DNA from: a virus
Strand: one strand, 5' to 3'
DNA length: 64,000 bases
Virus record (IMG/VR): IMGVR_UViG_3300030090_005562
Location: 32,001 to 96,000 of that record
The notes under the pieces were generated by a model. It was not told the DNA's origin. It did not search any database and worked only from the letters and a program-made list of their open reading frames with translations. Below are positions 23,001 to 63,436 of the stretch, piece after piece (positions within the stretch are counted from its first letter, which is position 1; each line of letters starts with the position of its first letter). The position numbers were made by a program, and so were the translations under genes.

Positions 23001-23009
23001 TATACACCA
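23001..23009 (-). promoter_or_regulatory. Putative late promoter TGGTGTATA
   Basis: Intergenic copy of the recurrent 9-mer, 25 nt upstream of ATG 22975. Confidence 0.7.
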
Positions 23010-23010
23010 T

Positions 23011-23253
23011 TTATTGTTGTTTAGGCCATTTGTTCTCAGGGCAGTCTTCACTTCTCCACCAAGCCTTTTTTGAAAGAACACAGCCGCATTTAATGCATTC
23101 GCCGTCTTTGTGATATTCGCAGGCGTTGCACGCATTTAATCTCTCTATATATTGTTCTAATGATACATCTTTAAATCCATCTTCAGCATGTTTTTTAACA
23201 GCTTTTGCAAAATTTGTTGCTTTTTTTATTATTCCTGGTTTATTATCATTCAT
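23011..23253 (-). CDS. Small Cys-rich metal-binding protein (DUF6171-like)
   Basis: ERLNACNAC...CIKCGC...K......CPENKW; SD GAGGAG. Confidence 0.7.
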   Translation of the reverse strand: MNDNKPGIIKKATNFAKAVKKHAEDGFKDVSLEQYIERLNACNACEYHKDGECIKCGCVLSKKAWWRSEDCPENKWPKQQ

Positions 23254-23284
23254 TTTTTTTCTCCTCTTGTTTAAGTGCCCCAGT

Positions 23285-24937
23285 TTAAGGGTTTAAATAA
23301 CAATATTCTTTTGTAGGAACTTTTTTATGTGATGAATAATCAGTCGGATTCTCAACGCAGGGAGGGGTTCTCCATCCACCCAATCCTCCTTCGAGGAGTT
23401 TTGAAGACATGAAAGCGGGGTCATGAAAGAATATGGTCTTTTGACTAAACGGCTCCTGTTCAGCCCCGTCTAATAAAAGATTGACATTTAAACATTTATT
23501 ATAGTCTGCAATTAGACACCAATAATCGTAAACTCTATATTCTGGCTCAACCCAGCCAGGAACAGGAACTATATCTCCCTCATAAGGCCAAAGAATATTT
23601 CCAAATTTTTCACTTTCATAGACTTTTCTTGTTGGCGGACAGTCTTCGTTCTCTAAAGCTCTATCCCAATATCTTAACCACCTTGGATTGGCATTACTTG
23701 GTTGTTCAGGAAGTCTGCCTCCTCCAGTCCATCCTATCCAGCATGGGTCGTAAACGCAAGTAGGGGTATCCCTGGTAACACTTGCAACTGGGTTCAACTC
23801 TTCCTCTCCTGTGTTCTCATTCTTTTCTTTCTTAAACAATCCGGAGTCCTCTTTGCATTTATCACTAATGTCTGGTGATGGGCATTTTGGAAAAATCTTT
23901 TTAAGACCATCTTGAAACCAAAGCAATTCACTCCACAGTCCTTTAGAGCTAGAGTTACAATTTGGCTCAGGCTGAACATTATATTCTGGGTCTCCTGGGT
24001 CTTCCATATTTGTATATCGCATCTCATATGAGGTAAAATCCCAAGAAACTCCCCTATTTGAACCGTGAGAACCAAGGTCTCTCCAAGCGTCTGATGCAGA
24101 AGCCGGTGTGTCAAAAGCAGTGGCGGAAGGGCTTTCTAAGTTTCTATCACTGCAATAATTGGTTGAACAATCTCTTGCTTCTGAAAACTGAACGTTTGCG
24201 GCCCTTGTTTCCATACCATAGCTGCTATAACCGACCGCAGTTCTTGCGCAGTTGTGGGTTTTCTCGTCAGGTTGATTTACACCCATGAAATCTTTTAAAA
24301 ATTTTTCAAAATTTTCTGACCAATATGTTGTTGGTAAAAATTCACTAGGTCCGCCATATGCCTCAGAGCCCGCCTCGCAAGGATGGCAAGGAACGTCTCT
24401 TCCGCAGTCTTGGTATTCACACGCAGGCGGTACGCCATCTGCGGGAACCTTAGTGACAGGAGCAGGGTTGGCACATTCACTAATAAAATTTCCTGTTAAT
24501 ATATTACATTGCGGAAAGCTAGCAATCAAGTCAGTTCCAGCTATATTTCCCTCACACTGTTCGCTTCCTCCAATAAAGGCGTTGCGTGACGCAGCTGATG
24601 CTGGATGAGAGCCGTTTGTAAGTATAGCTTTAATTACTGGATACGAAGAAACTGAAGAGTTGGTTCTATGGCCTTGAACTGGACCTAAAGAAATGACTGT
24701 GCTACACCAGCCTCCGTTTACGCCTCCATTAGCAAGCTGCCAATAATGATGAGCATCCCAGCAATCTCCTTGTGCTATTGCGTCTGCAAGAGGCATTGTC
24801 CTTTGGCCTGGAACTAAATGAAAAGAGTTTGGTGTAAAAGAAAACCTTCCACTTTCCATATACTGAGTTTTAACTTCCCCTGAAGCTGAAGGAGCCTTAC
24901 ACCAAGAGGCTATATGTGGTTGACATAAATTTGACAT
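23285..24937 (-). CDS. Cys/Trp/Pro-rich hypothetical tail-associated protein
   Basis: 550-aa ORF directly downstream of the tail-tip gene, SD AAGGA. Confidence 0.6.
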   Translation of the reverse strand: MSNLCQPHIASWCKAPSASGEVKTQYMESGRFSFTPNSFHLVPGQRTMPLADAIAQGDCWDAHHYWQLANGGVNGGWCSTVISLGPVQGHRTNSSVSSYPVIKAILTNGSHPASAASRNAFIGGSEQCEGNIAGTDLIASFPQCNILTGNFISECANPAPVTKVPADGVPPACEYQDCGRDVPCHPCEAGSEAYGGPSEFLPTTYWSENFEKFLKDFMGVNQPDEKTHNCARTAVGYSSYGMETRAANVQFSEARDCSTNYCSDRNLESPSATAFDTPASASDAWRDLGSHGSNRGVSWDFTSYEMRYTNMEDPGDPEYNVQPEPNCNSSSKGLWSELLWFQDGLKKIFPKCPSPDISDKCKEDSGLFKKEKNENTGEEELNPVASVTRDTPTCVYDPCWIGWTGGGRLPEQPSNANPRWLRYWDRALENEDCPPTRKVYESEKFGNILWPYEGDIVPVPGWVEPEYRVYDYWCLIADYNKCLNVNLLLDGAEQEPFSQKTIFFHDPAFMSSKLLEGGLGGWRTPPCVENPTDYSSHKKVPTKEYCYLNP

Positions 24938-24946
24938 TTTTTATCC

Positions 24947-27900
24947 TTAACAGTCGGCTACATCCATCCATTTAACAGGACATGCACCAGATTGACCTGC
25001 ATCATGACCTAAAATTTGTGCTTTATTTTCGTTATACCCAGGTATACTGGTCCAGTCAAAAGTGCTGTTGTCACAGGGGTCTGACCTTCCTATAACAGGG
25101 GTTCCTGTCCCTGGCCCGCTGCCTCCTCCTGGAATACTTGGCGTCACGGCGCCGCAAGCTTGAACTTGAGCCCATCTAGTTTCAACCCCTACAGTTGGTG
25201 GTGCTTGAGTGTATATAATTCTTGTTGTGGCCGTTAAATCTAAACAGTCGGGGCTTGGAGAGCCTGTATTGTACGCCTCAAGGTCTGTAACAACGCAAAT
25301 CGGCATAAATTCTGCTTGCATAACAACCCATTCACATCCATCTGGATTAAAATAAGCAAATATGTGTTGCCCTGAACAAAGAGGCTGGCCAAGGCGATTA
25401 GTAACAACAAAAGGAGATTGGTCGTCTGAGCCATCTCCAACAGGAGTCGCCTGCTGTGTCCCTCCTGGGACTAAATCTCCGTTTAGCTTAGCGTAGACGA
25501 TTATATTTCTATCTTTTTGTTGAACTGGAGGCGGAACCCACATTTTTTTACAGTCGTCCCATCTCACATCTAGCGGGCCAGCTTTCCAAGTATCAGGCCT
25601 CACTAACCAATCATCAGCAAATTTGCATGGGTCATTTGGTTCAGCAGGGACAGGACTACCCTCTACATCATAGCCCCAACCAACTATCACAACTGGGCCC
25701 TTCATACCTAATGGTCTAATTCCATCCGGCTCTTGCACTCTTGGCTGCAAACCATCTGAAGGCAAAGATTGGTCAAAAACTAAAGTTCTTATATCGTTTC
25801 CAGGTAAGAACTCAGGTTTGACACTTGCAAGAGTTTTAGCAAAAGTACTTGTCATGAATGGATTAGCTGTTTGAGATGTAATTTCTATTTCACAGCCAGA
25901 AGACGGGTCTGGCGAACAGCAGGGAGAGTAAACACTTGATAACCCCGCATTGAAAGTTGGGCTATCTGGACAAACGCTGCATGGAGGACTGCCAAATTCA
26001 TAAACTGTGAAATCAGCATTTTGTTCTGTAATTTGATATGGCCTAAATAAGCCTTCTAATCCAACTCCGGCAGATTTTTTCCAAATCTTTCCATCTGGAG
26101 AAGGGTCCGCCTCTTCCATCATTTGACGTAAACTCTCAGCAACAACTGTAGTACATTTGCCATGGTCTGGATAATTTGCTGGTCTTTTTGGGTCTTCTGC
26201 AAAATCTAAAGTAATCGCAGCCAGCCCATTCATTGACGTTCCTTTGCGAAAACCCCCTCCTGGACCAAACTCTTTTCCGCCATGAGCATTAGCTTGTTTA
26301 TCCGCTACTTTACCACCCTCACCTCCTCCTCCAGCTTGAATAGCATTTCTTAAAATAGACCTCTGTCTTCTTTCAACGGCTTCTGTTCTAAAAGCTCTTT
26401 GGAATTTTTGTTGAGCCTTGGCCATCTTTTCCATAAACTCCAACCTGCTTTGAGCTAAATCTCCAAAATTTGGAACAAAAGTTCTAAAAGTAAGGCTTGT
26501 AGTTACGCCTCCAACGCCAAGATTAAAAGACACGCTTGTGCATGCCGCTCCACCTAAAGAGCTTCCCAATCCAGGCACTCCTGCGTCAGTAGGAAGGCCT
26601 GTGAATTTAGCGCTACCACTTTCAAGGATTGTTCTGCCTGAAGTTTTAAGCTCTGTTTGAGCATTTCCGGCGATGTTCATAAATCCTATGCCATTAAAAT
26701 TCCAAGGCGTTAAACTTTCATCTCTTTCATATTCAGCCGAGCCAGCATCTCCATCATCATCAGCCCAAGGGCCATAGCAAAGCTCTCGACTTTGAAGTGG
26801 AACAATAGCACCATCGGGCAAAACAGGCTCAGTAGCAAGTCCTAAGCCTAGCAAACTTGCTCCGCCCCATCTTTCTGTTAATATTTCCCGCAATGTCTCA
26901 AGTTCATCCTCGTCGAGTTCTCCGTCTGCATTCGCTTCGGTCAAGATTGGTAAGAGGGCATTAGCTAATCCAACGACAACACCGCCTGGAACACCGCAAG
27001 TTGGCTTATGCAGCCTAAGCCCTCCACTAACATCAATTATTGCTGCGTGCTGAAAAGGATTGCCTTGATTGTCAAGTAGACAATTATCGGGCTGTTTTGG
27101 GTTGTCGCAATTATACAATATGATTTCATCAACAGACGACTTTATATAATAGTATTCTTTTTCAGACCACCAATCAGTTTCTAGTCTAGCAACATCAACT
27201 GTAAAGCCTGCTGGAACATCATCTTTTTTATATCTAACAAATGAGCCCACCTTTCCTTCTTCTGTTTTAAATACTTCCAGGCCTATGCCATAAAAATCTA
27301 GCAATAGTATCTTTGCATTTTCATCATATGGCCATCCACCGTCTGTTTGCTCAAAGTTTTTTTGAGCATTTGGGGGGTCGCTTGTAGATGGACAACATAA
27401 AATTGGAGGTATTGTATCTCCACCCACATCCTTTGATTCTGTGGGTAATAGAACAGCAAATTTCTTGCCATAATATTGACCAAACGAAGAAACAAATTCG
27501 TGACAACTGTGAAGAGCGCTATCTTGGCACTGCCGAGCCGCTTTCGCCAGGATAGCCTCCTCAGACGCATCCTCTATCTCAGCCGCAGTTAAATTAACCA
27601 GCCCTCTGGTTAGATTAGCCGCTATCATCTGCCAATTTAAACCAGGAACGGGTTCAACGTCGATTAGGTCTTGAATTCTGTCTCTTGCAAAAACCACGCA
27701 ATATTCATACCAAACTTCAAAACTTTCCTCTGCTGCACGTATTTCAAGTTCAGTTATAAAAATTGTATCTGTGCTTAACTCTGAGGCAAATGGCTGCAAG
27801 GTTATATCAACATCAAACCCAAGGCCAAATGGAACGGTTGGAAAAAGAACATCTTCATGAAGCTCTGGACAAATTAACTCTCCTGTTGTAGGGTCATTTC

Positions 27901-29017: not shown

Positions 29018-29036
29018 TTTCCTGCTTCCTCTTTAT

Positions 29037-30833: not shown

Positions 30834-30869
30834 TATATGATTTCTCCAAAAAATAGAATTCTATACATA

Positions 30870-33797
30870 CTATACACCACTTGCATTAATTGCTATTTGA
30901 GAACCCAAAATGAATAGGGATATATCCCCGTTTTTCAAAAACTGCTTAGTATAATACTTATAATCCGTGTCAAACTTCTCCTCCATAGCGGCTGGGCTGC
31001 AGACCTTATTTGACACAACAAGTTCATCTATTAAAAACTCGTCTTGTTGTTTCGGGTCAGCGCTTAAATTGTATCCAAGATTACTGTACGGAACCGAATC
31101 AGACCCTCTTTGTAAAAGACCTCCGACTTTAAGTTTTATATCATCTGTATCAGTTTTTACTTCGTATCCATCCCATTTTTGAGATACGTCAGTGATGGGT
31201 TTAATTTCAGGCATATATCCAGATTGCCCTGGATGCCCTTTTGCTGGAGAGGCAACTCTGACGAATGATTTGTATAGTTCTGTATCCACCCAATAATTTA
31301 TAAAATACCACCTATCGTCGTCAAACGGAATCATTAAGTCTGGAAGGTGTTCTTGAACTAATTCTCCGTCGTCATTGGTTTTCAAGATTCCGCCCATTCT
31401 TCCTCCTGCTGTAGTGTTTACAAAAGGAATCAGCCCTCCAAGAGTGTCGCTATTGGGTCGTAATCTATTTTCGCTATCAGACTTGAGTAAATTTTTAAGA
31501 GAATTAAAAGGCCCGTCTCCGCTCGCTTTAACGTTTGAATTATGACCGGCATAATAAATTGACCACTGACCAGATGTTGCCGTGGTACTCCCTGTAAAGC
31601 CAATCTCGCAGTTTCCTAATACCGACCTAATACCAAGTCCAAATGGAGTGGCGATTCCAGGTGCGGGGCCTTTTCTTTTTATCCAGAAAGATGTGGAAAC
31701 ACCTCTTCTTGGCGGAGTAAAGTTTCCAGCAGAATCAATATGCCCGTCTTTGGGCGTAATTCTATGCTGGTCACCAATAGACGGAGAGCCAGACTGTACC
31801 AATACAGTTCCATAATAAGGCGTTGACTGCTTGCCTTTAAATCTTGCTACTCCAGAACCGGTGAGGGATGACGATGGAAATCTATCGCTAGTTTGAAAAA
31901 ATCCAGATTCAGGGGTATAAGACCCAGGAAACGAGCTTTCAGCACCGGAACGCCATCCGCTAGCATATAATTTAAATCCATAATCCTGAGAATTATCATT
32001 TGTATTATTATCAAATTTATACAAAGAGCCGTCAGCACAATTTGTTTCAGACGCCGCAAACATAAGTGCTTCTCTTCTATCTGGAATATATTTATCACTG
32101 TTGACATTAACATCACGATAGAACAACCAAGAGTTAGGAGCTGTTACACCGCTAAATCCTTGAGTATTTAATCCTATGAAGTTCGTGCCAGCTAGTTCTG
32201 TGTCTAAAGTAAAAGCGTTTATATCTCTAGCGCCAGAAGCAGAGGGTGTTGCGTCTATGGAAGATTGTCCTCCAGAAATACCTCTTGCTATCTTCAAGTT
32301 TGATATATTAATTTGGGCTTGAATGAAAAGGTTCGCATCATTTAACACGCCAGAAGGCTTAGCTAGCAATAGCTCTGCTTGGCTTCCACCTCCTCCTTCA
32401 CCGCCTGTAATATCAATCCCGCCAAACAAGCTGCCAAGACCGCCAATTCCTTGAGCTTCTGCAGCGGTCGGACCTTTAACAAATAAGGGTTCTTTTCTTT
32501 TTAGAGTAAAGTTTCCTATATTAAGAGCAGCAAAACCAGATGAAGGTATCGGCGGCACACACTGAAGATATAGATTAGGGGTGGATGTTTCAGTAATGTG
32601 CCCTAAAGTAAAAAAGTTTGCGTCAGCTATTCCCGAGGGGAAGCATTTTAAGTAGAGGGATGTCTCGGCGGTTGCTGGGGTTGGAGCAAAAATAAAAAGG
32701 TCGGCGCCGCTCGAAGCGGGCAATGGGGCGTGAAGAAAAAGCGTCATAGCTTTTGTGAACAAGCCATACTCATAAGCCCCTATATCATATAAATTCCCAT
32801 ATGGTCTTTTAAACGACCTAATATCTTCAGTTACAGACGATATAGTAGTTCCAGCATCTCTAGCTGGTGAGTTTTTTCTAAGATAAAAATCTCCGGACGG
32901 ATAAATATTTACGCCGCTTCCAGCAACACTCTCAACTCTAATTTGTTTTGAAGGAATCCTAAATACCCTAGATTCTTTTTGATTTATAAGATGCCCAGCT
33001 AAAGTCACGCCCTGAGAAACAGACATGTCATCTGCAGAACTGTCGCTAGAAAGATTATTGCTGGTGCTTATGAAACCGTTGCCGTTTGTATTAGCATAAG
33101 AAAAGTCTATGCCGCTACAAGCCATTGATATGCAGTTTTGCACTGTGACATCAGCGCCGCCATAAAATCCAGGCAGATTTGTATTTGTAACTTTAAATCC
33201 AGTATTTATGTGCCCATAAGAGGTGCAGTTAAAACATTCTATTCCAGGCTTTCCTCCTAGCATGTTTTCCCCACCAAGCTCAAAACCCACATCGTTGCCA
33301 GTTTCAGTTCCTATTGCAAAGCAGTTTTTAATTAAGTTTCCTGAGCTAGCTGTGGTACTAACGTCTACTTTAGCTTTAAAACATGTGCCGTCTTTGTGAA
33401 AAGCCCAGCATTTATCTATTTCCATATTTGATGCAGAATTTATATCTAGTGTGAATCCGCGAGTGCTTCCTATTCCCTCTACTTTTGCATAGCTAACTGA
33501 TATTGTACTTGTTTGTGTGCCATCAATTGGAGGGGCAATCGTAGGGCCTTTATATAAATTACCCTGGTGAACCTCTCCAGAGGCAGCATAAATTCTTGGG
33601 TATCCAGATGAAGTAGGGGTAGACGCCCATCCAGACAATGTAAAGGTGCCAAGGTCAAATCCTTCATAACACTCAGCCCACTGAAATGGGTTTATTTTGT
33701 CGTCTACAAAATCTTCCCAAGCTTGAATGGTTGTAAAATCTCCAGTTCCAAGCGGGTGCGTAGATGCGCGAATTGTCCTTATTTTTGGTCTAGCCAT
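30870..33797 (-). CDS. Tail-associated protein: pectate-lyase-like beta-helix/choice-of-anchor-Q-like module, LFI-G repeats, LamG-like domain
   Basis: NC ladder (IKNC, CFNC, VQNC), FYLRKNSPARDAG...DIGAYEY, SFWIK...RWYFINYW...IDELVV. Confidence 0.7.
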   Translation of the reverse strand: MARPKIRTIRASTHPLGTGDFTTIQAWEDFVDDKINPFQWAECYEGFDLGTFTLSGWASTPTSSGYPRIYAASGEVHQGNLYKGPTIAPPIDGTQTSTISVSYAKVEGIGSTRGFTLDINSASNMEIDKCWAFHKDGTCFKAKVDVSTTASSGNLIKNCFAIGTETGNDVGFELGGENMLGGKPGIECFNCTSYGHINTGFKVTNTNLPGFYGGADVTVQNCISMACSGIDFSYANTNGNGFISTSNNLSSDSSADDMSVSQGVTLAGHLINQKESRVFRIPSKQIRVESVAGSGVNIYPSGDFYLRKNSPARDAGTTISSVTEDIRSFKRPYGNLYDIGAYEYGLFTKAMTLFLHAPLPASSGADLFIFAPTPATAETSLYLKCFPSGIADANFFTLGHITETSTPNLYLQCVPPIPSSGFAALNIGNFTLKRKEPLFVKGPTAAEAQGIGGLGSLFGGIDITGGEGGGGSQAELLLAKPSGVLNDANLFIQAQINISNLKIARGISGGQSSIDATPSASGARDINAFTLDTELAGTNFIGLNTQGFSGVTAPNSWLFYRDVNVNSDKYIPDRREALMFAASETNCADGSLYKFDNNTNDNSQDYGFKLYASGWRSGAESSFPGSYTPESGFFQTSDRFPSSSLTGSGVARFKGKQSTPYYGTVLVQSGSPSIGDQHRITPKDGHIDSAGNFTPPRRGVSTSFWIKRKGPAPGIATPFGLGIRSVLGNCEIGFTGSTTATSGQWSIYYAGHNSNVKASGDGPFNSLKNLLKSDSENRLRPNSDTLGGLIPFVNTTAGGRMGGILKTNDDGELVQEHLPDLMIPFDDDRWYFINYWVDTELYKSFVRVASPAKGHPGQSGYMPEIKPITDVSQKWDGYEVKTDTDDIKLKVGGLLQRGSDSVPYSNLGYNLSADPKQQDEFLIDELVVSNKVCSPAAMEEKFDTDYKYYTKQFLKNGDISLFILGSQIAINASGV
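30871..30879 (-). promoter_or_regulatory. Putative late promoter TGGTGTATA overlapping the last codons and stop of the upstream gene
   Basis: Recurrent 9-mer, 37 nt upstream of ATG 30833. Confidence 0.65.
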
Positions 33798-33799
33798 GA

Positions 33800-41000: not shown

Positions 41001-41900
41001 TTAAGACTCAGATGATTGCTTGTCTTTTTTGGGTCTTCCTCTTCTTTTTTTTACTGGCTCTTTTTCCTCTTTATCTTCATCAGTAGCTCCTATCGGATTT
41101 CCCTTTTCGTCCAAAAATGGCTTTACCCTGTCTGATATAGGCTCTCCACTTTCATCAATCCTTTCCCCGTTAATGTCTACATATTCACCCTGCTCGTTAA
41201 TATATCTAAAGTTGTCATCAATTAGCCTTCCTTGATAATCAACTTTTCTGCCTTGTTCGTCCAGTAAAAAATCTTTATCTGCAAATTTATGTTCACTTAG
41301 AAATTTATTTTCGATTAAATTACTCTCATAGTCTTTTTCTAATCCAAAATAAAACTCTGCAAATTTTCCTGCCGCCAAAACTGCAACGCTATCCTCATCA
41401 GAATCCTCTGACGAAAAGTCGTCCATTGTTTTGTAGACCCTTTCAAAGTTACCGTTATCATCAGTCCTATCATTATACACCAAACAATTAATTAATAAAA
41501 AGTTAAATCTTGCGTTTTCAGCTTGTCCTTGGGCGCTATTTACATCCAAAGCATTTCTGTTTTCAATCATGGCCTTGACAAGGTTTCTGCAAGCTTTTAT
41601 GTTAATGGCTAGCTCTTTGGCCTCAGACAATTTTATACCACCAAGTTTTAAAAGCTTCTCTTTATCAGAAATTTCCATCAAAAGAGAGGTGTATTCGGCT
41701 TCTTTTTCATCATCCCACAGACCCTGCTCTCTCATAAAGGTGTCTAAAGACTCTCTTAAAAGTGCCCCATTCCTAAGAGATTTGCTGAAGACTCTATTGT
41801 ATTCCATAGACGCGTCTTCATTGATTTTTGAAGTTGGAGTGAGTATTGCATAAGTCTCGCCTTTGAACTCAAAAACCTCGGCCTTTTTCTTTTTAACCAT
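41001..41900 (-). CDS. Putative tail assembly chaperone
   Basis: Directly upstream of the TMP; SD AAGGAG before ATG 41900; C-terminal D-x-x-G repeats and an RRGRPKK motif. Confidence 0.6.
   Translation of the reverse strand: MVKKKKAEVFEFKGETYAILTPTSKINEDASMEYNRVFSKSLRNGALLRESLDTFMREQGLWDDEKEAEYTSLLMEISDKEKLLKLGGIKLSEAKELAINIKACRNLVKAMIENRNALDVNSAQGQAENARFNFLLINCLVYNDRTDDNGNFERVYKTMDDFSSEDSDEDSVAVLAAGKFAEFYFGLEKDYESNLIENKFLSEHKFADKDFLLDEQGRKVDYQGRLIDDNFRYINEQGEYVDINGERIDESGEPISDRVKPFLDEKGNPIGATDEDKEEKEPVKKRRGRPKKDKQSSES
41474..41482 (-). promoter_or_regulatory. Intragenic copy of TGGTGTATA(AT), possible promoter for the TMP transcript
   Basis: Matches the 44976 site over TTTGGTGTATAAT; about 550 nt upstream of the TMP start; could be chance. 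Confidence 0.35.
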
Positions 41901-42285
41901 TAAATTGCTCCTTATTTTTATCAATATTTATTCCAAGGCTATATCTTTCCCAGTTTATTGAATAGTTATCTATCTCGTTCATGGCCGCACGTAATTGAGT
42001 GTTGCCATTGTCTAGTATTTCAGTTCTTACCTCTTCCCATATTTCTTTCATTTCTAGTTCTTGCTCATTTAAATCATCGTCATCTTTGCCGTGTCCCCAA
42101 AGAAAACCAAAATTTTTTTCACAAGACGATATCGCTCCTATGAATGAGGTTTTAATTTTTGTGTTTACTATATTAGAAAGTCTTTTTTTTGATTTGTCCT
42201 TATATTTTATCTCTTTAGCTTCTCGCTTTTTTTGTTGGCTTGCCGCTAATTGATAGTGGCTTAGCTTATTTTCATTGTGTTCCAT
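41893..42285 (-). CDS. Hypothetical protein of the tail-assembly cluster
   Basis: SD GAGGA before ATG 42285; FGFLWGH, RTEILDNGNTQLR. Confidence 0.65.
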   Translation of the reverse strand: MEHNENKLSHYQLAASQQKKREAKEIKYKDKSKKRLSNIVNTKIKTSFIGAISSCEKNFGFLWGHGKDDDDLNEQELEMKEIWEEVRTEILDNGNTQLRAAMNEIDNYSINWERYSLGINIDKNKEQFNG

Positions 42286-42286
42286 G

Positions 42287-43351
42287 CTATCCTCTTGCCT
42301 TTTGTTTAAATTGCTCATTAGCCATTTGTCTCATCTCAAGCTGAGCTTCAACGGTTTGCTCAGTTTTCAATCCTTTGCCTTTTTTAGATTGATTGTCTAA
42401 TTGCTTATTCAGGCTTTTTATCGTTGATTTACCCTGAATATCATTCAAATCGTGTATTCTCTTTGCGTCTTCTGCGGTATCAGCAAAAAGAAAAACTTCA
42501 TCACCTTTCACATCAGACCCTTTTTTGGAAACAGCGGATTTAGACCTTTCACTTTCCGCCTTTCTGTTTTGATATATTAACCAACCATCAAGCATATCAT
42601 CGTCCTCAATAACGGTGCTAGCAGGGCACTCATGGCTAGATAGAACGCTATCATATATTTTAGACCAAGTTATCAATGACCTTTGTTGAGGTGTAAGCTC
42701 AATTGAAGGTTTATTAAAAACGCCTCCTTCAGCCTTGCCAGGGCCCCAAAAACTTTTCCACACATCGTTCTTGGATATAGTCCTTATACGTTTATCTGTT
42801 ACATAGAAAGAAAGATATTTTATGGCAACGTCAGAAACAATATTATTGTCACTTTGGTCATAATCTTCAAAAAAAACATCATCATTTTCATAAAATGTAT
42901 TTGTACATATTAAATATCTAGATTTTGTAATCGACGCTAGCCCCTCGCAAGTTTGTTCTGATAATATACCTCTTTTTTTAGAAAGCTTAACGTATTCCTC
43001 ATTTAAATCTTTTATTCTTTTCCTTATTGGGTCTCTAGATTTAAAATTCTTATACGCTAAATAAAGCTGAACTTTAGCATCTTCTATTTTTTTGGGAATG
43101 CTATCTAGCTGTTCTTGTTCGAGCTTGCTCCACAAATTAACAGAAATCAATTTTTCAATCATCTCCTCTTCTTTTATTGTGCCTAAATATTCAGACTTAT
43201 CAAAAATTTTTTTATAAATTAAAGAGCCCTTTAGCATGCTTGAAACGCTCGGTTCTTTAACATATAAAGAATTACCAAAAACCTTAATTCTAGTTTTTCC
43301 TTCAATTATATCATACAGTTGTATTTCAAGTTGATGTTCATCATCAATCAT
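42287..43351 (-). CDS. Putative tail assembly chaperone, long form (paralog of 41001-41900)
   Basis: Lies between tail tube and TMP; shares the P...Y...F...LW...EG.A pattern with the 41001 gene. Confidence 0.55.
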   Translation of the reverse strand: MIDDEHQLEIQLYDIIEGKTRIKVFGNSLYVKEPSVSSMLKGSLIYKKIFDKSEYLGTIKEEEMIEKLISVNLWSKLEQEQLDSIPKKIEDAKVQLYLAYKNFKSRDPIRKRIKDLNEEYVKLSKKRGILSEQTCEGLASITKSRYLICTNTFYENDDVFFEDYDQSDNNIVSDVAIKYLSFYVTDKRIRTISKNDVWKSFWGPGKAEGGVFNKPSIELTPQQRSLITWSKIYDSVLSSHECPASTVIEDDDMLDGWLIYQNRKAESERSKSAVSKKGSDVKGDEVFLFADTAEDAKRIHDLNDIQGKSTIKSLNKQLDNQSKKGKGLKTEQTVEAQLEMRQMANEQFKQKARG

Positions 43352-44975: not shown

Positions 44976-44984
44976 TATACACCA
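44976..44984 (-). promoter_or_regulatory. Putative late promoter TGGTGTATA
   Basis: Intergenic, upstream of the major tail gene. Confidence 0.75.
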
Positions 44985-48171: not shown

Positions 48172-48174
48172 AGA

Positions 48175-50869: not shown

Positions 50870-51050
50870 TTTCTATAAATCTATTGTCAAGTTCGTCTAT
50901 TGCGTTTTGCGATTTAGGAATTTGTTCTCCTCGTCTTTCATCAAAATTTATTCCGCCATTGCTCATTTTCATACCAGCCTGTATTCGTCTGTTGGCTGAA
51001 ATGGTCTCTGTAACCACATCGCTGCCACTCAATGCGTTTTCACCTGCCAT
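50844..51050 (-). CDS. 68-aa protein homologous to the C-terminus of the LamG protein (possible anchoring module)
   Basis: ALSGSDVV...ANRRIQAG...GGINF...DELDNRF matches ALTGNDVL...ANLRTQAG...GGINF...DELNDRF. Confidence 0.75.
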   Translation of the reverse strand: MAGENALSGSDVVTETISANRRIQAGMKMSNGGINFDERRGEQIPKSQNAIDELDNRFIENDGDRYGV

Positions 51051-51052
51051 TT

Positions 51053-52093: not shown

Positions 52094-52108
52094 AGTGTTT
52101 TATCTCCG

Positions 52109-52630: not shown

Positions 52631-52672
52631 GTTTTTTTCTCCTGTCTGCGCAGATAGAGTGGTACGATATAG

Positions 52673-52681
52673 TATACACCA
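52673..52681 (-). promoter_or_regulatory. Putative late promoter TGGTGTATA, directly downstream of the MCP terminator
   Basis: Intergenic 9-mer 8 nt after the terminator U-tract. Confidence 0.75.
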
Positions 52682-52689
52682 ATAATTAC

Positions 52690-52720
52690 AAAAAAAGCTG
52701 GCCCCGAAACCGAGGCCAGC
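52690..52720 (-). terminator. Rho-independent terminator after the major capsid gene
   Basis: GCTGGCCTCG-GTTT-CGGGGCCAGC followed by TTTTTTT. Confidence 0.9.
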
Positions 52721-52747
52721 CCTTTATTTTGCCGTAAATGCTTAGTT

Positions 52748-53761: not shown

Positions 53762-53771
53762 TTTAGTTCTC

Positions 53772-54287: not shown

Positions 54288-54301
54288 AATTTATTTCTCC
54301 T

Positions 54302-55111: not shown

Positions 55112-55975
55112 TGAGCTTTCTCCTTTACTACTAGTAACTAGTGCATTGAAATTTGGTTGTGACGTAGCCACACCTTTAAAAATCTCATTATCTTCTCGCT
55201 TGAAAATAATAGACTCAGGATTGCCTGGATTTTCAACCAACCCTTTTCCACTAAAAGTCATATTCCTCATAAGTCTGCCAACCCTGCTGCCTTCATATTC
55301 ACCAGCTCCGCCATAAGAGCGAAGATGCTTGCTCAGGAAAGCTGTGTCTTCATTTCTGTTGACAATAGTTTGCTCTCCGCTAGCAGTCATTAAAGCATAG
55401 TCGAAATTTGAAAATAAAGCCTCCATTGAAACAAACCACTTTCCTTCTAAAATTTCTTGCAAAAGAGCTTTGGTAGCTAAACTCAATTTTTCATCTTTAC
55501 TAGATATGTGCTTATAAATAACAGCACTAGTCAAGATATGAAACTTATCTGGAAGTGAATCAACTTCTGACTCTTCTCTAACTAGCTCATAGTTGTCATC
55601 AACTACAGCATTCCCAGTTATATGTCCAATGATAACATTGGGGTCATGCCCTTTATTAAAGGGCTTGTCCTCAGCAGTGCTTCTCGCAGACCATGTTTCG
55701 TAACTGTCAAAAACATCATCATTTCTATTCCATCCTGTAGTTGCTAGTATGGAATATATATATTCTAAATCAAACTGCTGTTGATTAGCTGCTTTGGATT
55801 GGTAGAATGAATCTACATCTTTAATCTTTGTTTGTTCTAACGCAGCAGCTGAAATTATATTTTTATCAGTAAATATTGGACAATAAGCCGCAACGGACCT
55901 ATTCTCATCAGCTTGTATGGCTTCGGATAATCCAGCCTCAGCCTCAGCTTTATATACCGGTATTTCTCTGTACAT
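54302..55975 (-). CDS. Prohead protease-scaffold fusion
   Basis: GWNRNDDVF, KPFNKGH...IIGHI, VSME, FSGKGLVENP; acidic coiled-coil C-terminal half. Confidence 0.8.
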   Translation of the reverse strand: MYREIPVYKAEAEAGLSEAIQADENRSVAAYCPIFTDKNIISAAALEQTKIKDVDSFYQSKAANQQQFDLEYIYSILATTGWNRNDDVFDSYETWSARSTAEDKPFNKGHDPNVIIGHITGNAVVDDNYELVREESEVDSLPDKFHILTSAVIYKHISSKDEKLSLATKALLQEILEGKWFVSMEALFSNFDYALMTASGEQTIVNRNEDTAFLSKHLRSYGGAGEYEGSRVGRLMRNMTFSGKGLVENPGNPESIIFKREDNEIFKGVATSQPNFNALVTSSKGESSMSDNNEQVQALKAQVETLEARLKALDEEKVQAQISEFEAACAGKDAEISELSSKIEAVSETLTESKKAYDEVSTAKAEADKMISELTEKLDAIEAESLKTSRISALVDSGVEKTEAESLVETFAGITDEQFDALVLKLSEAPFHDKDEKKKKEDKEKAEAPMHKKKDEEKKADAPMHYKKAGHKGDEKKAEAPSHYKKMAEKKEAKADSEDYAEFAEEAEDAEILDNVEVEAEAAALAATNEEESEQIVASLNQYFNEVLSGTGNKKES

Positions 55976-56013
55976 ATTTTATATATCTCTGTTTTCAAAG
56001 ATGCTTACAAATT

Positions 56014-56022
56014 TATACACCA
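56014..56022 (-). promoter_or_regulatory. Putative late promoter TGGTGTATA
   Basis: Intergenic, upstream of the protease-decoration-MCP operon. Confidence 0.75.
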
Positions 56023-56042
56023 TTTTTAAAAATAGGATAAAA

Positions 56043-58217: not shown

Positions 58218-58269
58218 TTTTATGTTCTTTCATTAGTATTGGTATTTGATTGGTAATACTATTGTATGT

Positions 58270-58278
58270 TATACACCA
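58270..58278 (-). promoter_or_regulatory. Putative late promoter TGGTGTATA
   Basis: Immediately after the TerL stop, upstream of portal. Confidence 0.75.
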
Positions 58279-60324: not shown

Positions 60325-60799
60325 ATTTTTGTTGAGACTCCATAAACCTCTTAAATATACTAGAACAAACTTCTTTAGCGTACTTGCCACAAAAGATAAA
60401 TGGAACGTCGTATTTCTTTTGAAATTCTAGTATTCTCTTTAGGAAGAATGGTCCTCTCACTTTCATGTATTTTCTCTTATAGGCGGGTATTTTACTTCCT
60501 TTAGGAAATTCAACCACATCTTTCATTTCAAACTCTAACAATACATATCTCCATGGAAACTCTATCATTCTCTCAAGCTCTCTCTCAAACCTTGGTTGTG
60601 TTATGTTTGTTGCTAGCTCTGATACATTTCCTTTTCTCTCTATACATATATGATTTTCGTATCCGTATAAAGTATAATCCCCAGTCTTTATGGTTTGCTC
60701 CTCTGTTCCGGCGCAATATCCAGACTGTGCAAATTCCCAGCCGTCTTTTTCTCTGGTATCCCTATAAACTAAATAAGGGTCGTATTTTTCTTTGGACAT
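60311..60799 (-). CDS. ERCC4-domain nuclease
   Basis: RDTREK, KTGDY, CIERK...EL, RF.RELERM. Confidence 0.85.
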   Translation of the reverse strand: MSKEKYDPYLVYRDTREKDGWEFAQSGYCAGTEEQTIKTGDYTLYGYENHICIERKGNVSELATNITQPRFERELERMIEFPWRYVLLEFEMKDVVEFPKGSKIPAYKRKYMKVRGPFFLKRILEFQKKYDVPFIFCGKYAKEVCSSIFKRFMESQQKYGHK

Positions 60800-61836
60800 G
60801 ATTCGTTTATGTCATGCTCTACCATTCTTTTAACCATTTCATTGAAGGGAGTTTCTACAGTCCATCCAATCTCATTTTTTGCCTTATTGGCGTCTCCATG
60901 TAAAAACTCTACCTCCGCAGGTCTATAAAATTTGGGGTCAACAACTACTAAGTTTTCCCATTCTTTTATGCCTATAAAGTCAAAAGCTATTCTAACAAAA
61001 TCCCTAACGGTTCTGCTAGTTCCGGTAGCTATAACATAATCCTCTGCTTGTTCTTGTTGTAACATCATCCACATCGCCTTAACGTAATCAGGCGCATAGC
61101 CCCAATCTCTGGCCGCATCCAAATTTCCTAATCGCAGTTTTGGAAAGCTTTCCTCTGGGTTCATTACAGAAAGTATGTTGTCTGGGTCAGAGACTGCATC
61201 GAATGGCTTGTTCTCGCTAGCCATCCAGTTTCTAAATTCAGCTACCCATTTCGTAATCTTTCTGCTCACAAACTTCTCTCCTCTTCTCTCGCTCTCATGA
61301 TTGAATAAAATACCACTGCAAGCATACATTCCATAAGCCTCTCTGTAGATTCTTACTTTGTGGTGTGAAGCAAGTTTTGCTATGGCGTATGGAGACTGAG
61401 GCTCAAATGGCGTGCTTTCTCTTTGATAGCCATCTGGGTCAACAGAGCTTCCAAACATTTCAGATGTGCTTGCCTGATAAAATTTAGCCTTAAAAGAGTG
61501 TCTTCTGACTGACTCAAGTATATTTAGTGGGCCTTCAGCGTCAACCCTCCATGTATGTAGAGGCTCATTGAACGATGTCGCAACATGAGACTGAGCCGCA
61601 AGATTGTAAACTTCGTCAGGCTGAAAGTCATTGATAATCGAAGAAACACTGATAAAATCAGTCACATCGCCTTCGACTAGGCTAAAACCATCATTTTGTT
61701 CTAGGTGTCGTAATCTTCCTGTGTTGTCTATGCTTGCTCTGCGAATAACGCCTAAAACTTTGTATCCTTTTTCTAAAAGAAGTTCGGATAGGTAAGAGCC
61801 GTCTTGTCCTGTAACCCCAAATATAATAGCTTTCAT
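60769..61836 (-). CDS. gmd: GDP-mannose 4,6-dehydratase
   Basis: GVTGQDGSYL, NLAAQSHV, FYQASTSEMFG, SPYAIAKL, GILFNHES, RDWGYA.DYV. Confidence 0.96.
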   Translation of the reverse strand: MKAIIFGVTGQDGSYLSELLLEKGYKVLGVIRRASIDNTGRLRHLEQNDGFSLVEGDVTDFISVSSIINDFQPDEVYNLAAQSHVATSFNEPLHTWRVDAEGPLNILESVRRHSFKAKFYQASTSEMFGSSVDPDGYQRESTPFEPQSPYAIAKLASHHKVRIYREAYGMYACSGILFNHESERRGEKFVSRKITKWVAEFRNWMASENKPFDAVSDPDNILSVMNPEESFPKLRLGNLDAARDWGYAPDYVKAMWMMLQQEQAEDYVIATGTSRTVRDFVRIAFDFIGIKEWENLVVVDPKFYRPAEVEFLHGDANKAKNEIGWTVETPFNEMVKRMVEHDINESCPKKNTTLI

Positions 61837-61838
61837 TG

Positions 61839-62657
61839 TTAATCCTTTTGCTCGTCTTCAAGTTCCGCTTCTGGCGTAAGCCATACTTTGTCAACCTCTC
61901 CATCAGCAAAAACCATATTTTGCTTCATTTGTCCTTCTTTAGTTTTAGATGCCTCATAAACCAAACCGGTCATTCTACCCTCTGTCTCGCGCATCTTTTG
62001 TTCATCCAGTAACTTGATGAGGGCAAATATATTTTTACCCGATTCTTCCACCGTCTTGAGCCTTTCATTTCTCGTGGCCTTCAGGTCTTTAAATTTACCA
62101 TCCTTTGTTTTCTTAATTTCGTTTATCTCTTTTGTGTACGCTTCTGAGGTGCCGCGAAGTTGAACAATGGTGCGAAGTGCATTCGTCATAAAATCAGAGT
62201 CCCTGTCGTCCATGTCTTTTTCTCTCTCCTCGGCCAACAAACGCTCGTTCTCTTTTATTTCCTCTAATATGTTCTTCTTCTGTTCCAAAGCCCGGTGCAG
62301 CAATATGTCTTCAATTATAACATCCTTCATCATTATCTCGTCAGTCGCAGTTACGCCTTGATGAAAGAATTGGGAATAGAGAGAGGCCCAGCTATTTTCA
62401 AATGTTTCTACCTCCTCATGAAGTAGGCTCTTTTTGATAGTCGTCCAGAAATGCTTAGAATGAAGTTGGGAAACATAGCCCTGTAGCTCTGTGTTTGCGT
62501 TTTCTTGAGGGGCAACAGCCCTTCTTTGGGATATTGCCTCAACGCTTCTATCTAGCTTCTGCGCAATCTGCTCGTCAGTCATGTTGGACAGATTGGAGTC
62601 TATGAAAGATATCTCGTCTTTTCTAAGCCTGCCCGTCTTCATCTTCGCTCCATTCAT
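61839..62657 (-). CDS. HTH/coiled-coil protein, putative terminase small subunit
   Basis: N-terminal HTH (MTDEQIAQKLDRSVEAI), helical body, upstream of TerL; start 62657 or 62642. Confidence 0.45.
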   Translation of the reverse strand: MNGAKMKTGRLRKDEISFIDSNLSNMTDEQIAQKLDRSVEAISQRRAVAPQENANTELQGYVSQLHSKHFWTTIKKSLLHEEVETFENSWASLYSQFFHQGVTATDEIMMKDVIIEDILLHRALEQKKNILEEIKENERLLAEEREKDMDDRDSDFMTNALRTIVQLRGTSEAYTKEINEIKKTKDGKFKDLKATRNERLKTVEESGKNIFALIKLLDEQKMRETEGRMTGLVYEASKTKEGQMKQNMVFADGEVDKVWLTPEAELEDEQKD

Positions 62658-63252
62658 AATGTTCAGACAGAATATTTTTTATTTCCTGCATAAGATTGTC
62701 TCTTTTGTTTTTTGGAAGCTTAACGCCATCAATAAACATTCTGTAATCGGACCTAATCGAAGCTGGAATATGCTCATTTAAAATCTTGATAATGTCTGAT
62801 GATAAAAGCTTTTCGTTGAAATTAGAGACGAATGATGCATCTCTTGTGTGTATTTCGTCAACGTCAAACGGCTCCATCAGACTTCTCTTTGCCATATTTC
62901 TCTGAACCCAGTTTGAGTATTTCTTACAGTCTAGTCTGTTGGCTGAGTCTTCTTTGCATAATTTACAGTCACATAGAGGCGGCTCAATCCTCGTAAGGCT
63001 TTTCCTTCTCATGTTCAGAAACCTCCACCTGACATGAGTTTTTAGAAAAGTCAAAAGCGCGTCCTTTACATCGTCCTGATTTGATTTATTGAAATTGAAT
63101 GACGGTAAGGCCTCGATGCAGAATATAGTGCCCTCCTGCTTCATGTCGTCTATATCAAAATAGCCAAATTTGAAGCTGGGGGCTAAATATGCCACGGCCT
63201 TATCAATAACTTGTAAAACGTCTTCTTCAGTCAGTCCCTTGGGTATTTTCAT
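62623..63252 (-). CDS. Phage RNA polymerase sigma factor (region 2 conserved, region 4 degenerate)
   Basis: DIDDMKQEG..FCIEAL..FN...LLTFL..HVRWRFLN..RK; Cys cluster CDCKLC...C. Confidence 0.75.
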   Translation of the reverse strand: MKIPKGLTEEDVLQVIDKAVAYLAPSFKFGYFDIDDMKQEGTIFCIEALPSFNFNKSNQDDVKDALLTFLKTHVRWRFLNMRRKSLTRIEPPLCDCKLCKEDSANRLDCKKYSNWVQRNMAKRSLMEPFDVDEIHTRDASFVSNFNEKLLSSDIIKILNEHIPASIRSDYRMFIDGVKLPKNKRDNLMQEIKNILSEHYEWSEDEDGQA

Positions 63253-63376
63253 CAATTATTTCTTTGGCAATCGATTTTTCTGGGTCAGGCGTATTAAGCT
63301 CATCCTCAGTTTTTTTCTTGCTTTCTTCGGCCTCTGTTGTGTATAATATCGAAGGGGTAAGTTTTTTATCGGACAT
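63227..63376 (-). CDS. 49-aa acidic ORF absent from the ORF track (MSDKKLTPSILY...ENTQGTD)
   Basis: SD GGAG before the ATG; first ORF after the sigma70 promoter; overlaps the sigma gene start. Confidence 0.5.
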   Translation of the reverse strand: MSDKKLTPSILYTTEAEESKKKTEDELNTPDPEKSIAKEIIDENTQGTD

Positions 63377-63407
63377 ATTTTGTCTCCAAGGAAAAAGTGG
63401 ACATTAT

Positions 63408-63436
63408 ATTATACCCTAAAAATGCGAAAAAGTCAA
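63408..63436 (-). promoter_or_regulatory. Sigma70-type promoter TTGACT-N17-TATAAT
   Basis: Minus strand TTGACT ttttcgcatttttaggg TATAAT in the divergent intergenic region. Confidence 0.85.

What the first reader, a model, noticed from the sequence alone, without database searches (positions are those of the whole stretch)
23001..63436. Candidate late-promoter motif TGGTGTATA with a cognate truncated sigma factor: a two-step transcription cascade
Seen: TATACACCA (TGGTGTATA on the coding strand) occurs at 23001, 30871, 41474, 44976, 52673, 56014 and 58270, always in the orientation of the structural genes. Six copies sit at gene junctions 25-72 nt before a start codon: portal, protease/MCP operon, adaptor (right after the MCP terminator), tail tube, distal tail and the 213-aa protein. 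Rough chance expectation is below one per strand in 64 kb. I see no shared -35 element, and the spacing does not match the TGnTATAAT extended -10. The sigma gene (62623-63252) keeps region 2, carries a Cys cluster, lacks a clear region-4 HTH, and lies behind TTGACT-17-TATAAT. Known: T4 gp55 is a truncated sigma that reads a -10-only promoter. Inference: host sigma70 expresses the phage sigma, which then reads TGGTGTATA.
Basis: partly seen in the sequence, partly recalled or inferred. Interest (0 to 1): 0.78.

Follow-up and report, generated by a model that had tools for sequence, protein, structure and literature searches.

The report
Phage promoter motif with its own sigma
An uncultured marine phage marks the start of its virion and other non-early gene blocks with the 9-base word TGGTGTATA. 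The word is conserved across hundreds of related phages and is most likely a one-piece promoter read by a small zinc-cluster sigma factor that the phage makes from an ordinary host-type promoter.

Summary
TGGTGTATA occurs 7 times in the window, all on the minus strand (0.35 expected). It occurs 12 times in the 148.8-kb contig, always co-oriented with the local genes and at gene junctions.

It is conserved. The core GTGTAT sits in 62 of 70 distinct terminase-to-portal junctions of related phages, against 1 of 70 on the opposite strand. Orthologues of motif-preceded genes keep it in 18 of 32 cases, controls in 2 of 32. There is no -35 element.

The 209-aa gene is a real sigma-70-family member. 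26 of 37 family members hit Pfam Sigma70_r2, and its N-terminal domain has the sigma-2 fold. It is not truncated like T4 gp55: a Cys cluster and a weakly sigma-4-like C-terminal domain follow. It lies behind a conserved TTGACT-17-TATAAT promoter and is the only sigma-like gene shared by all five genomes compared.

The closest known system is phiEco32 gp36, whose single-element promoter is tAATGTAtA, though no sequence homology was detected.

The cascade idea is plausible but unproven: no start sites are mapped. Two further sigma genes lie outside the window, and the motif also drives non-structural genes. I rate it a new variant of a known kind.

The parts
58270..58278 (-). TGGTGTATA site directly after the large-terminase stop codon, 52 nt before the portal ATG
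   Evidence: The core GTGTAT is kept at this junction in 62 of 70 distinct relatives.
56014..56022 (-). TGGTGTATA site 38 nt before the 557-aa gene that heads the block containing the major head protein
   Evidence: Orthologues in L001-L007, G001 and G002 keep the motif.
52673..52681 (-). TGGTGTATA site 10 nt after the terminator that follows the major head gene, 42 nt before the 173-aa gene
   Evidence: The same terminator-plus-motif arrangement occurs in L003 and L005.
44976..44984 (-). TGGTGTATA site 72 nt before the 412-aa gene
   Evidence: Orthologues in G001, G002 and G004 have the motif 57-66 nt upstream.
41474..41482 (-). TGGTGTATA site 47 nt before the in-frame ATG at 41426, which opens a 141-aa gene just ahead of the 2374-aa protein
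   Evidence: Orthologues in G001, G002 and G003 have the motif 32-59 nt upstream.
30871..30879 (-). TGGTGTATA site overlapping the TAG stop of the 975-aa gene, 37 nt before the 598-aa gene
   Evidence: Not conserved in the four relatives tested, so this is the weakest of the seven.
23001..23009 (-). TGGTGTATA site 25 nt before the 213-aa gene
   Evidence: Orthologues in G001, G002 and G003 keep the motif.
63337..63345 (+). One-mismatch variant TTGTGTATA(AT) pointing rightwards out of the divergent control region
   Evidence: Conserved as TAGTGTATAA at the same place in L001, L002, L003 and L006.
62623..63252 (-). 209-aa sigma-70-family protein: sigma-2 domain (residues 1-87), Cys cluster (C94, C96, C99, C109), C-terminal helical domain (about 150-200)
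63227..63376 (-). 49-aa ORF with its own Shine-Dalgarno sequence, between the promoter and the sigma gene and overlapping the sigma start
63408..63436 (-). Host-type promoter TTGACT-17-TATAAT that drives the leftward operon (small ORF, sigma, probable small terminase and onward)
   Evidence: 11 of 12 matches. A matching promoter sits at a conserved distance in 19 of 36 relatives.
63510..63537 (+). Divergent host-type promoter TTGACA-16-TAGAAT. It is the first of about 30 such promoters, most of them in the early arm.
52692..52725 (-). Intrinsic terminator after the major head gene
61839..62657 (-). 272-aa protein with an N-terminal helix-turn-helix and a coiled coil. Probably the small terminase, not a sigma region 4 partner.
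   Evidence: The Sigma70_r4 hit is only E=0.05.

Best explanation
TGGTGTATA is a single-element promoter. Its family-wide core is T(G/A)GTGTAT(A/T)AT, preceded by an A/T-rich stretch and with no -35 box.

Proposed sequence of events:
1. Early in infection the host primary-sigma holoenzyme uses the roughly 30 canonical TTGACA-N16-18-TATAAT promoters.
2. One of these (63436-63408, minus strand) transcribes a 49-aa ORF and the 209-aa phage sigma.
3. This sigma has a sigma-2-like N-terminal domain, a Cys-cluster linker that probably binds zinc, and a small sigma-4-like C-terminal domain. It binds host core RNA polymerase.
4. The new holoenzyme starts transcription a few bases downstream of each TGGTGTATA. 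This restarts expression after terminators and at the heads of the portal, head, tail and several non-structural gene blocks.

Shown here: the motif's statistics, orientation, position and deep conservation; the sigma-family membership and fold; the host-type promoter upstream; and the co-occurrence of sigma and motif.

Inferred: that the motif is a promoter, that this particular sigma reads it, and where transcription starts.
For: Motif reality:
- 7 copies against 0.35 expected.
- 12 of 12 co-oriented and at junctions.
- GGTGTATA is the most intergenic-enriched 8-mer in the genome.

Conservation:
- the exact 9-mer is kept at orthologous junctions while the flanks diverge.
- one complete relative (G002) has 30 exact copies against 0 for the reversed control.
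- G002 has 41 GGTGTATA copies in total.
- GTGTAT is in 62 of 70 terminase-to-portal junctions, against 1 of 70 on the reverse strand and a shuffle mean of 2.9.
- orthologues of motif-preceded genes keep it in 18 of 32 cases, against 2 of 32 controls (Fisher p=1.2e-5).

Promoter-like anatomy:
- the motif overlaps a -10-like TATAAT, with less than 0.3 bit of information anywhere in the -35 zone.
- one copy sits 10 nt after a strong terminator.

Sigma identity:
- 26 of 37 family members hit PF04542 (best E=3.2e-8).
- all 7 Protein Data Bank (PDB) profile hits are sigma factors.
- all listed Foldseek hits are sigma-factor chains. The best VIA-align match is 8b3z_A at Z=8.5, rmsd 2.9 over 77 residues.
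- the nearest ESM Atlas clusters carry Sigma70_r2.

Cascade:
- a host-type promoter lies upstream of the sigma gene and is conserved in position.

Cognate link:
- the 209-aa sigma is present in all five genomes. The two region-4 sigmas are absent from G001 (95% complete).
- G001 still carries (T/G)GGTGTAT at nine intergenic sites by my crude ORF calls.
- the sigma gene is syntenic, 4-6 kb upstream of portal, in 28 of 33 loci with at least 4 kb of upstream sequence. The five loci without it are contig fragments or reach only 4.3-8 kb upstream.

Precedent:
- phiEco32 gp36 reads tAATGTAtA, with starts 6-8 bp downstream, through an N-terminal domain, a linker and a C-terminal domain of the same general layout (PMC8948821, PMC12276001).
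Against: - No transcript 5' ends, expression data or biochemistry exist. The phage is uncultured and the host unknown (one search gave only inconsistently binned metagenome-assembled genomes (MAGs)).
- The window's own protein does not itself reach any Pfam or PHROG threshold. Its sigma assignment rests on homologues and on a model with mean pLDDT 71.
- The motif contains a good TATAAT in many copies, especially in G002, so the host primary sigma might read it.
- Two other phage sigma genes exist in this genome.
- The contig is only about 60% complete by CheckV, so a phage RNA polymerase could lie in the missing part.
- The sigma was the seed used to collect the first set of relatives, so part of the co-occurrence is by construction. 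The portal-seeded set corrects this only partly.
Confidence: 0.55

Rival explanations
1. The motif is a promoter, but the host primary sigma reads it as a -10-only or unusual extended -10 promoter (GTG directly abutting TATAAT). A phage factor that disables -35-dependent initiation would shift the polymerase to these sites, as Thermus phage P23-45 gp39 does. The 209-aa sigma would then serve another promoter class.
For: Family consensus positions 4-9 of GTGTATAAT read TAT(A/T)AT, and G002 sites are almost all GGTGTATAAT. The P23-45 middle and late promoters are of the extended -10 class, lack a -35 and are read by host sigma A (PMC3950348).
Against: The TG lies one base too close for the canonical TGnTATAAT. 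In this genome the base that would be -7T is T in only 6 of 12 sites, while the five bases upstream of TATA are invariant. That is the reverse of the sigma-70 pattern. The upstream GTG is kept across phages of 37-49% GC from many environments, which fits a reader that travels with the phage. The early promoters of the same genome use a proper TGn spacing, for example TGGTAGAAT.
Confidence: 0.2
2. The motif is a promoter read by one of the two other phage sigma proteins with a canonical region 4. These are the 206-aa and 164-aa genes at contig positions 138058-138678 and 141163-141657, outside the window.
For: Both have clear Pfam Sigma70_r4 (E=2.7e-10 and 3e-12). A motif copy lies at the 3' end of the 164-aa gene in G000, G002 and G003.
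Against: Neither has a homologue in G001 (95% complete), which still has the motif at junctions. G003 lacks the 206-aa type. Sigmas with a full region 4 normally need a -35 box, and none is present. An earlier scan note assigns a sigma-28-like bipartite motif in the early arm as a possible target for such factors (e1-5784211). I saw its GnCGATAA part inside early promoter spacers.
Confidence: 0.07
3. The motif is not a promoter. It acts on the transcript as an RNase processing site or translational operator, or it is the DNA site of a regulator or antiterminator.
For: It is strand-specific and sits in 5' leaders, which an RNA signal would also do. One copy lies only 9-10 nt from a start codon.
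Against: Its distance to the start codon varies from 9 to 72 nt. It follows a strong terminator, after which a new start is needed. It resembles a -10 element and the experimentally proven phiEco32 gp36 promoter. No paired or palindromic structure accompanies it.
Confidence: 0.1

Closest known systems
phiEco32 (Kuravirus) gp36 sigma factor and its middle/late promoters tAATGTAtA
   Same: - Both use a single 9-bp promoter element ending in TGTATA, with no consensus -35.
- Both have several copies at the heads of middle and late operons.
- Both sigmas are about 210 aa, with a sigma-2-like N-terminal domain, a long linker and a small sigma-4-like C-terminal domain.
- In both, the host sigma-70 drives early genes first.
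(PMC8948821; PMC12276001.)
   Different: - No detectable sequence homology (hhalign E=0.52; BLASTP E=0.73).
- Positions -14/-13 are GG here and AA in phiEco32.
- A conserved Cys cluster sits in the linker here.
- No gp79 homologue was found (the tool notes an empty result here shows nothing).
- The phage family, genome size (over 148 kb against 77 kb) and habitat all differ.
- Here nothing has been tested experimentally.
T4 gp55 late sigma with the TATAAATA promoter
   Same: A phage-encoded divergent sigma-2-like protein reads a -10-only element. The gp55 chain 7d7d_F appears among the fold matches (Z=7.3).
   Different: gp55 lacks any C-terminal sigma-4-like domain and needs gp33 and the gp45 clamp. 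The protein here has a Cys-cluster linker and a C-terminal domain. The motif differs. No PHROG or Pfam link to gp55 was found.
Extended -10 middle/late promoters of Thermus phage P23-45, read by host sigma A under gp39 and gp76
   Same: The non-early promoters lack a -35 and rely on the -10 region plus bases just upstream. There is a switch away from -35/-10 early or host promoters (PMC3950348).
   Different: Here the upstream bases are TGGTG in a different register, and a phage sigma is available.
ECF-type (group 4) two-domain sigma factors
   Same: The domain plan is sigma-2 plus sigma-4 without regions 1.1 and 3. The region 2 consensus of the family (DMKQQ...PLENFLWTHVRNRLFNxKR) resembles the ECF pattern. 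The best PDB profile hits after SigB are SigW, SigH, CnrH, SigR and sigma E.
   Different: There is no recognisable region 4 by sequence, a Cys cluster sits in the linker, and the promoter is single-element rather than a bipartite -35/-10.

Membership tests
Sigma-70 family (region 2 / sigma-2 domain) | Sequence match to Sigma70_r2 (PF04542) | tested here: met
   The window's own protein gives no hit. However, 26 of 37 homologues (27-72% identical to it) match PF04542, best E=3.2e-8. The family profile hits only sigma factors in the PDB.
Sigma-70 family (region 2 / sigma-2 domain) | Sigma-2 three-helix fold | tested here: met
   AlphaFold2 model, residues 1-87: 8b3z_A (SigE N-terminal domain) Z=8.5, rmsd 2.9 over 77 residues. 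RpoS region 2 and sigma-70 1sig both give Z=8.0. Foldseek probability is 1.0 to 8b3z_A, and all listed Foldseek hits are sigma chains. Caveat: helical folds give middling Z scores easily.
Sigma-70 family (region 2 / sigma-2 domain) | Region 4 / sigma-4 helix-turn-helix domain | tested here: inconclusive
   No Pfam region 4 hit. The C-terminal-domain model (pLDDT 77.5) gives Z of only 3.3-4.8, but about 19 of the top 50 chains are sigma-4 domains. Foldseek found nothing.
Sigma-70 family (region 2 / sigma-2 domain) | Binds core RNA polymerase and confers promoter-specific initiation | not testable with these tools
   Needs biochemistry or a reporter assay.
phiEco32 gp36-type sigma and promoter system | Single-element promoter nnnTGTATA without a -35 consensus, in multiple copies before non-early operons | tested here: met
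   The literature consensus tAATGTAtA is from PMC8948821.
phiEco32 gp36-type sigma and promoter system | Sigma homologous to gp36 | tested here: not met
   hhalign of the family profile against gp36: probability 0.1, E=0.52. BLASTP E=0.73.
phiEco32 gp36-type sigma and promoter system | Transcription starts 6-8 bp downstream of the element | not testable with these tools
   No RNA data. The geometry is compatible: in G002 the Shine-Dalgarno sequence begins 8-10 nt after the 9-mer, and one gene starts 9-10 nt after it.
phiEco32 gp36-type sigma and promoter system | gp79-type co-factor | tested here: inconclusive
   No match to gp79 in the contig. The protein is small, the contig is incomplete, and the tool warns that an empty answer shows nothing.
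T4 gp55-type late sigma | Sigma-2-only protein with no C-terminal domain, and a TATAAATA promoter | tested here: not met
   A linker with a Cys cluster and a four-helix C-terminal domain are present. The motif is TGGTGTATA. No PHROG or Pfam link exists.
Canonical extended -10 (TGnTATAAT) sigma-70 promoters | TG at -15/-14, one base upstream of a hexamer with A at -11 and T at -7 | tested here: not met
   If TATAnn is the hexamer, the TG abuts it and the last base is T in only 6 of 12 sites. If TGn is honoured, the hexamer is TGTATA, with G at -11 and A at -7.

The most novel reading that the evidence does not exclude
The conserved Cys cluster between the sigma-2 and sigma-4-like domains is a zinc module that takes the place of sigma region 3.0. 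It would read the duplex bases just upstream of the melted region (the TGG of TGGTGTATA). This would give a new sigma architecture whose specificity has diversified across a very large uncultured phage family: G or A at -14, A or T at the last position. The phage would then run a multi-sigma programme combining host sigma-70, this sigma, two region-4 sigmas and a reported sigma-54-type promoter.
Probability: 0.2. Interest if true: 0.72.

Novelty: new variant of a known kind. Interest (0 to 1): 0.55.

Why it matters
Phage-encoded sigma factors with one-piece promoters are known from only a few cultured models: T4, SPO1 and phiEco32. Here the same logic appears in a family with more than 560 portal relatives in IMG/VR from marine and other metagenomes (sample types not tabulated), none of them cultured.

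If the link holds, it has three practical consequences:
- The 9-mer gives a direct way to annotate transcription units and temporal classes in these uncultured genomes.
- It provides a compact orthogonal sigma and promoter pair for synthetic biology.
- It offers a natural series of promoter variants and sigma variants for studying how sigma-2 and adjacent modules read the -15 to -7 region, including a -11 G type element as in phiEco32.

Tried and rejected
- Nucleotide and tblastn searches of 50,697 deposited phages found no relative of the region or of the sigma. The large terminase reaches only about 27% identity, to Bacillus siphoviruses.
- A literature search for the 9-mer returned only unrelated primers.
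- Pfam and PHROGs on the window's own sigma gave nothing.
- Profile comparison with the two region-4 sigmas of the same genome gave only a weak alignment in the correct register over region 2 (E=0.021, probability 2%).
- I considered the 272-aa downstream ORF as a split-off region 4, because of a weak r4 hit at E=0.004. I rejected this: it is a helix-turn-helix plus coiled coil, typical of a small terminase.
- The T7-type RNA polymerase family was not found, but the control genomes were silent too, so this says nothing.
- The host could not be inferred. The GTDB hits are MAG contigs binned to unrelated phyla.
- I began to look for co-variation between the bases at -14/-13 and sigma residues, then dropped it. 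There were too few independent sites per locus and heavy phylogenetic confounding.
- Loci L064 and L077 have the motif but no sigma within 7-8 kb upstream. Both are contig fragments, so they are not counter-examples.

Full report
**Observation.** TGGTGTATA occurs seven times in the 64-kb window, at the coordinates given and only on the minus strand. Dinucleotide-preserving shuffles expect 0.35 copies.

The window is bases 32001-96000 of a single 148,761-bp viral contig, which CheckV estimates at about 60% complete. The contig has twelve exact copies. The other five are on the plus strand, in the arm whose genes run on the plus strand, so all twelve point with the local genes (p=5e-4).

By a crude ORF map, nine copies lie in the 7.6% of the contig that is intergenic or within 12 nt of a gene end (p=1.5e-8). 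The other three are explained as follows:
- One sits in a spurious 57-aa ORF that overlaps a terminator.
- One sits in a probably spurious antisense ORF, directly after a stop codon.
- One (41474) sits in an over-called 307-aa ORF, and is in fact a conserved upstream site of a shorter gene.

GGTGTATA is the most intergenic-enriched 8-mer of the genome. The site at 52673 lies 10 nt after the best intrinsic terminator in 44-64 kb, the one behind the major head gene.

**Anatomy of the element.** Aligning the twelve sites plus 21 distinct sites from relatives shows an A/T-rich run, the invariant 9-mer, then A and T at about 55-60% each. The extended consensus is therefore TGGTGTATAAT.

In the complete relative G002 (49% GC) there are 41 GGTGTATA copies (30 exact TGGTGTATA against 0 for the reversed control). 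Their consensus is tttGGTGTATAATAtAGTAGgagg. Across 35 of them, no position in the -35 zone carries more than 0.3 bit. It is a single-element signal.

Two reading registers are possible:
- TATAAT is the hexamer. The TG then abuts it, one base too close for the canonical TGn, and the -7 T is present in only 6 of 12 sites here.
- TGn is honoured. The hexamer is then TGTATA, with G at -11.

**Conservation.** The 209-aa protein has 69 close metagenomic homologues from TARA, ENA and JGI sources, with no annotation. It also has 16 loci in IMG/VR at 73-30% identity.

In those loci the exact 9-mer recurs at the same junctions while the flanks differ. The junctions are: after the terminase stop, before the gene that begins MYREIP, after the head-gene terminator, and before the MPLPKREK gene on the other arm.

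A portal-seeded search found at least 568 relatives. In 70 distinct terminase-to-portal junctions, GTGTAT is present in 62 on the coding strand and 1 on the opposite strand. Shuffles give a mean of 2.9 and a maximum of 9. The family consensus is T(G/A)GTGTAT(A/T)AT.

Subfamilies carry variants:
- GGTGTATTT in G004
- AGGTGTATGAT in G003
- TAGTGTAT and AAGTGTAT in more distant loci

I then compared four fully fetched relatives whose sigma is 30-40% identical to the window's. Orthologues of the genes that follow the motif here have GTGTAT within -200 to +30 in 18 of 32 cases. Orthologues of internal operon genes have it in 2 of 32 (Fisher p=1.2e-5). The element and its positions are therefore under selection.

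**The sigma-like gene.** The window's own 209-aa protein hits nothing in Pfam or PHROGs. Evidence from homologues and models is nonetheless strong:
- In an alignment of 37 diverse homologues, 26 match Pfam Sigma70_r2 (best E=3.2e-8).
- The family profile hits only sigma factors in the PDB: SigB, SigW, SigH, CnrH, SigR and sigma E.
- The nearest ESM Atlas clusters carry Sigma70_r2.
- An AlphaFold2 model (mean pLDDT 71) has three N-terminal helices that superpose on sigma domain 2. The matches are 8b3z_A at Z=8.5, RpoS region 2 and sigma-70 at Z=8.0, and T4 gp55 at Z=7.3. All listed Foldseek hits are sigma chains.

After residue 87 comes a Cys cluster. In this clade the cysteines are C94, C96, C99 and C109. 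Family-wide the pattern is PCxxC...C...DC. A low-confidence linker follows, then a four-helix C-terminal domain.

Folded alone, the C-terminal domain has pLDDT 77.5. It matches nothing strongly, but about 19 of the top 50 chains are sigma region 4 domains at Z 3.3-4.8. Its sequence keeps the (I/L)xxxLxxxxPxxxRxxY pattern of region 4.1 but has no recognisable -35 reading helix-turn-helix.

So the protein is a minimal two-domain sigma with an unusual metal-binding linker. It is not a gp55-like truncation.

**Expression of the sigma.** The two best sigma-70-type matches in 44-64 kb are a divergent pair at 63436-63408 (minus strand, TTGACT-17-TATAAT) and 63510-63537 (plus strand). The leftward one is followed by a 49-aa ORF with its own Shine-Dalgarno sequence, and then by the sigma gene.

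A promoter scoring at least 10 of 12 lies at a similar distance (about 177-250 nt) upstream of the sigma gene in 19 of 36 distinct relatives. Shuffles give 3.8.

Genome-wide, about 30 near-consensus TTGACA-N16-18-TATAAT promoters crowd the small-gene arm at contig 95-125 kb. That arm lacks the 9-mer apart from one copy next to a repeat element. This is the pattern expected of an early class read by the host, and a later class read by something else.

**Which factor reads the motif?** The contig also encodes two sigma proteins with clear Pfam region 4, of 206 aa and 164 aa, outside the window. Their distribution argues against both:
- G001 (95% complete) lacks both yet keeps (T/G)GGTGTAT at nine intergenic sites by my crude ORF calls.
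- G003 lacks the 206-aa type.

The 209-aa gene is present in all five genomes. It sits 4-6 kb upstream of portal in 28 of 33 portal-seeded loci that have at least 4 kb of upstream sequence. The five exceptions are contig fragments or reach only 4.3-8 kb upstream.

This makes the 209-aa sigma the best candidate. It remains an inference.

**Comparison with known systems.** The closest precedent is phiEco32. Its gp36 sigma (214 aa) has a sigma-2-like N-terminal domain, a linker and a sigma-4-like C-terminal domain. It reads the single element tAATGTAtA, with starts 6-8 bp downstream (PMC8948821). In the cryo-EM structure the 9-mer spans -15 to -7, with T at -12 and G at -11, and with -14 and -13 read in duplex form (PMC12276001).

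The present motif differs from it only at -14/-13 (GG for AA). These are also the positions that vary most within this phage family.

No sequence homology to gp36 is detectable, and no gp79 homologue was found. The system therefore works like the phiEco32 system but is not a member of that family.

T4 gp55 and the P23-45 extended -10 switch (PMC3950348) are more distant analogies. The P23-45 switch defines the main rival explanation.

I put about 0.85 on the motif being a promoter. I put about 0.55 on the full statement: a promoter read by the 209-aa sigma, which is itself expressed from a host-type promoter.

The finding is a new variant of a known kind. What is new is the Cys-cluster sigma architecture, the size and habitat of the family, and the multi-sigma setting.

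Noticed in passing
window 58218-58269 (minus strand) and portal leaders in L056-L135: The 5' leader between the motif and the portal ATG carries repeated ATTACAAT-type words. ATT[AG]CAAT occurs 34 times in 62 distinct leaders, against 0.65 in shuffles. Only 12 of 62 leaders have a Shine-Dalgarno-like word in their last 20 nt. This may be a Shine-Dalgarno-independent translational enhancer or operator. From memory, it resembles the ACAAUUAC repeats of the TMV omega leader.
   Followed up: partly
contig 96202-96222 (window coordinate 64202, just past the window end); L001:3762, L002:372, L003:1842: A 424-aa gene with DUF3721 starts only 9-10 nt after TGGTGTATA in this phage and in relatives. Its N-terminal peptide is conserved. 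This predicts a leaderless or near-leaderless mRNA.
   Followed up: partly
contig 138058-138678 and 141163-141657 (L021:7058-7678, L021:10163-10657): There are two further phage sigma-like genes with clear Pfam Sigma70_r4. The 206-aa gene lies behind a TTGACA-type promoter and a tRNA-Met. The 164-aa gene has a TGGTGTATA at its 3' end in three genomes.
   Followed up: partly
contig 101.5-112.4 kb (outside the window) and early regions of L010 and L015: A repeated intergenic module (GC-rich hairpin flanked by TAAGTCGTTAC-type boxes) lies in front of the TTGACA promoters of the early cassettes. Many of those promoters have GnCGATAA in the spacer. Both features were already noted by earlier scan reports.
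   Followed up: no
window 41001-41924 (minus strand): The 307-aa ORF is probably over-called. A conserved promoter-like site at 41474 and an in-frame ATG at 41426 suggest a 141-aa gene. The upstream part overlaps the 141-aa ORF at 41893-42318 by 32 nt, just ahead of the 2374-aa protein. That layout would suit a frameshifted tail chaperone pair.
   Followed up: partly
window 61839-62657 (minus strand): The 272-aa protein has an N-terminal helix-turn-helix and a long coiled coil, and is syntenic with the sigma gene in all five genomes. It is probably the small terminase. GDP-mannose 4,6-dehydratase and an ERCC4 nuclease lie between it and the large terminase.
   Followed up: partly
window 20686-48171 (minus strand): Ten large structural-arm ORFs (141-975 aa) have no PHROG match at E<=0.001. 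The virion module is very poorly covered by known families.
   Followed up: no
L091, L099, L100 (upstream of the sigma gene): In some distant relatives a GTGTAT word lies inside the spacer of the host-type promoter that precedes the sigma gene. This might allow feedback by the phage sigma on its own promoter.
   Followed up: no
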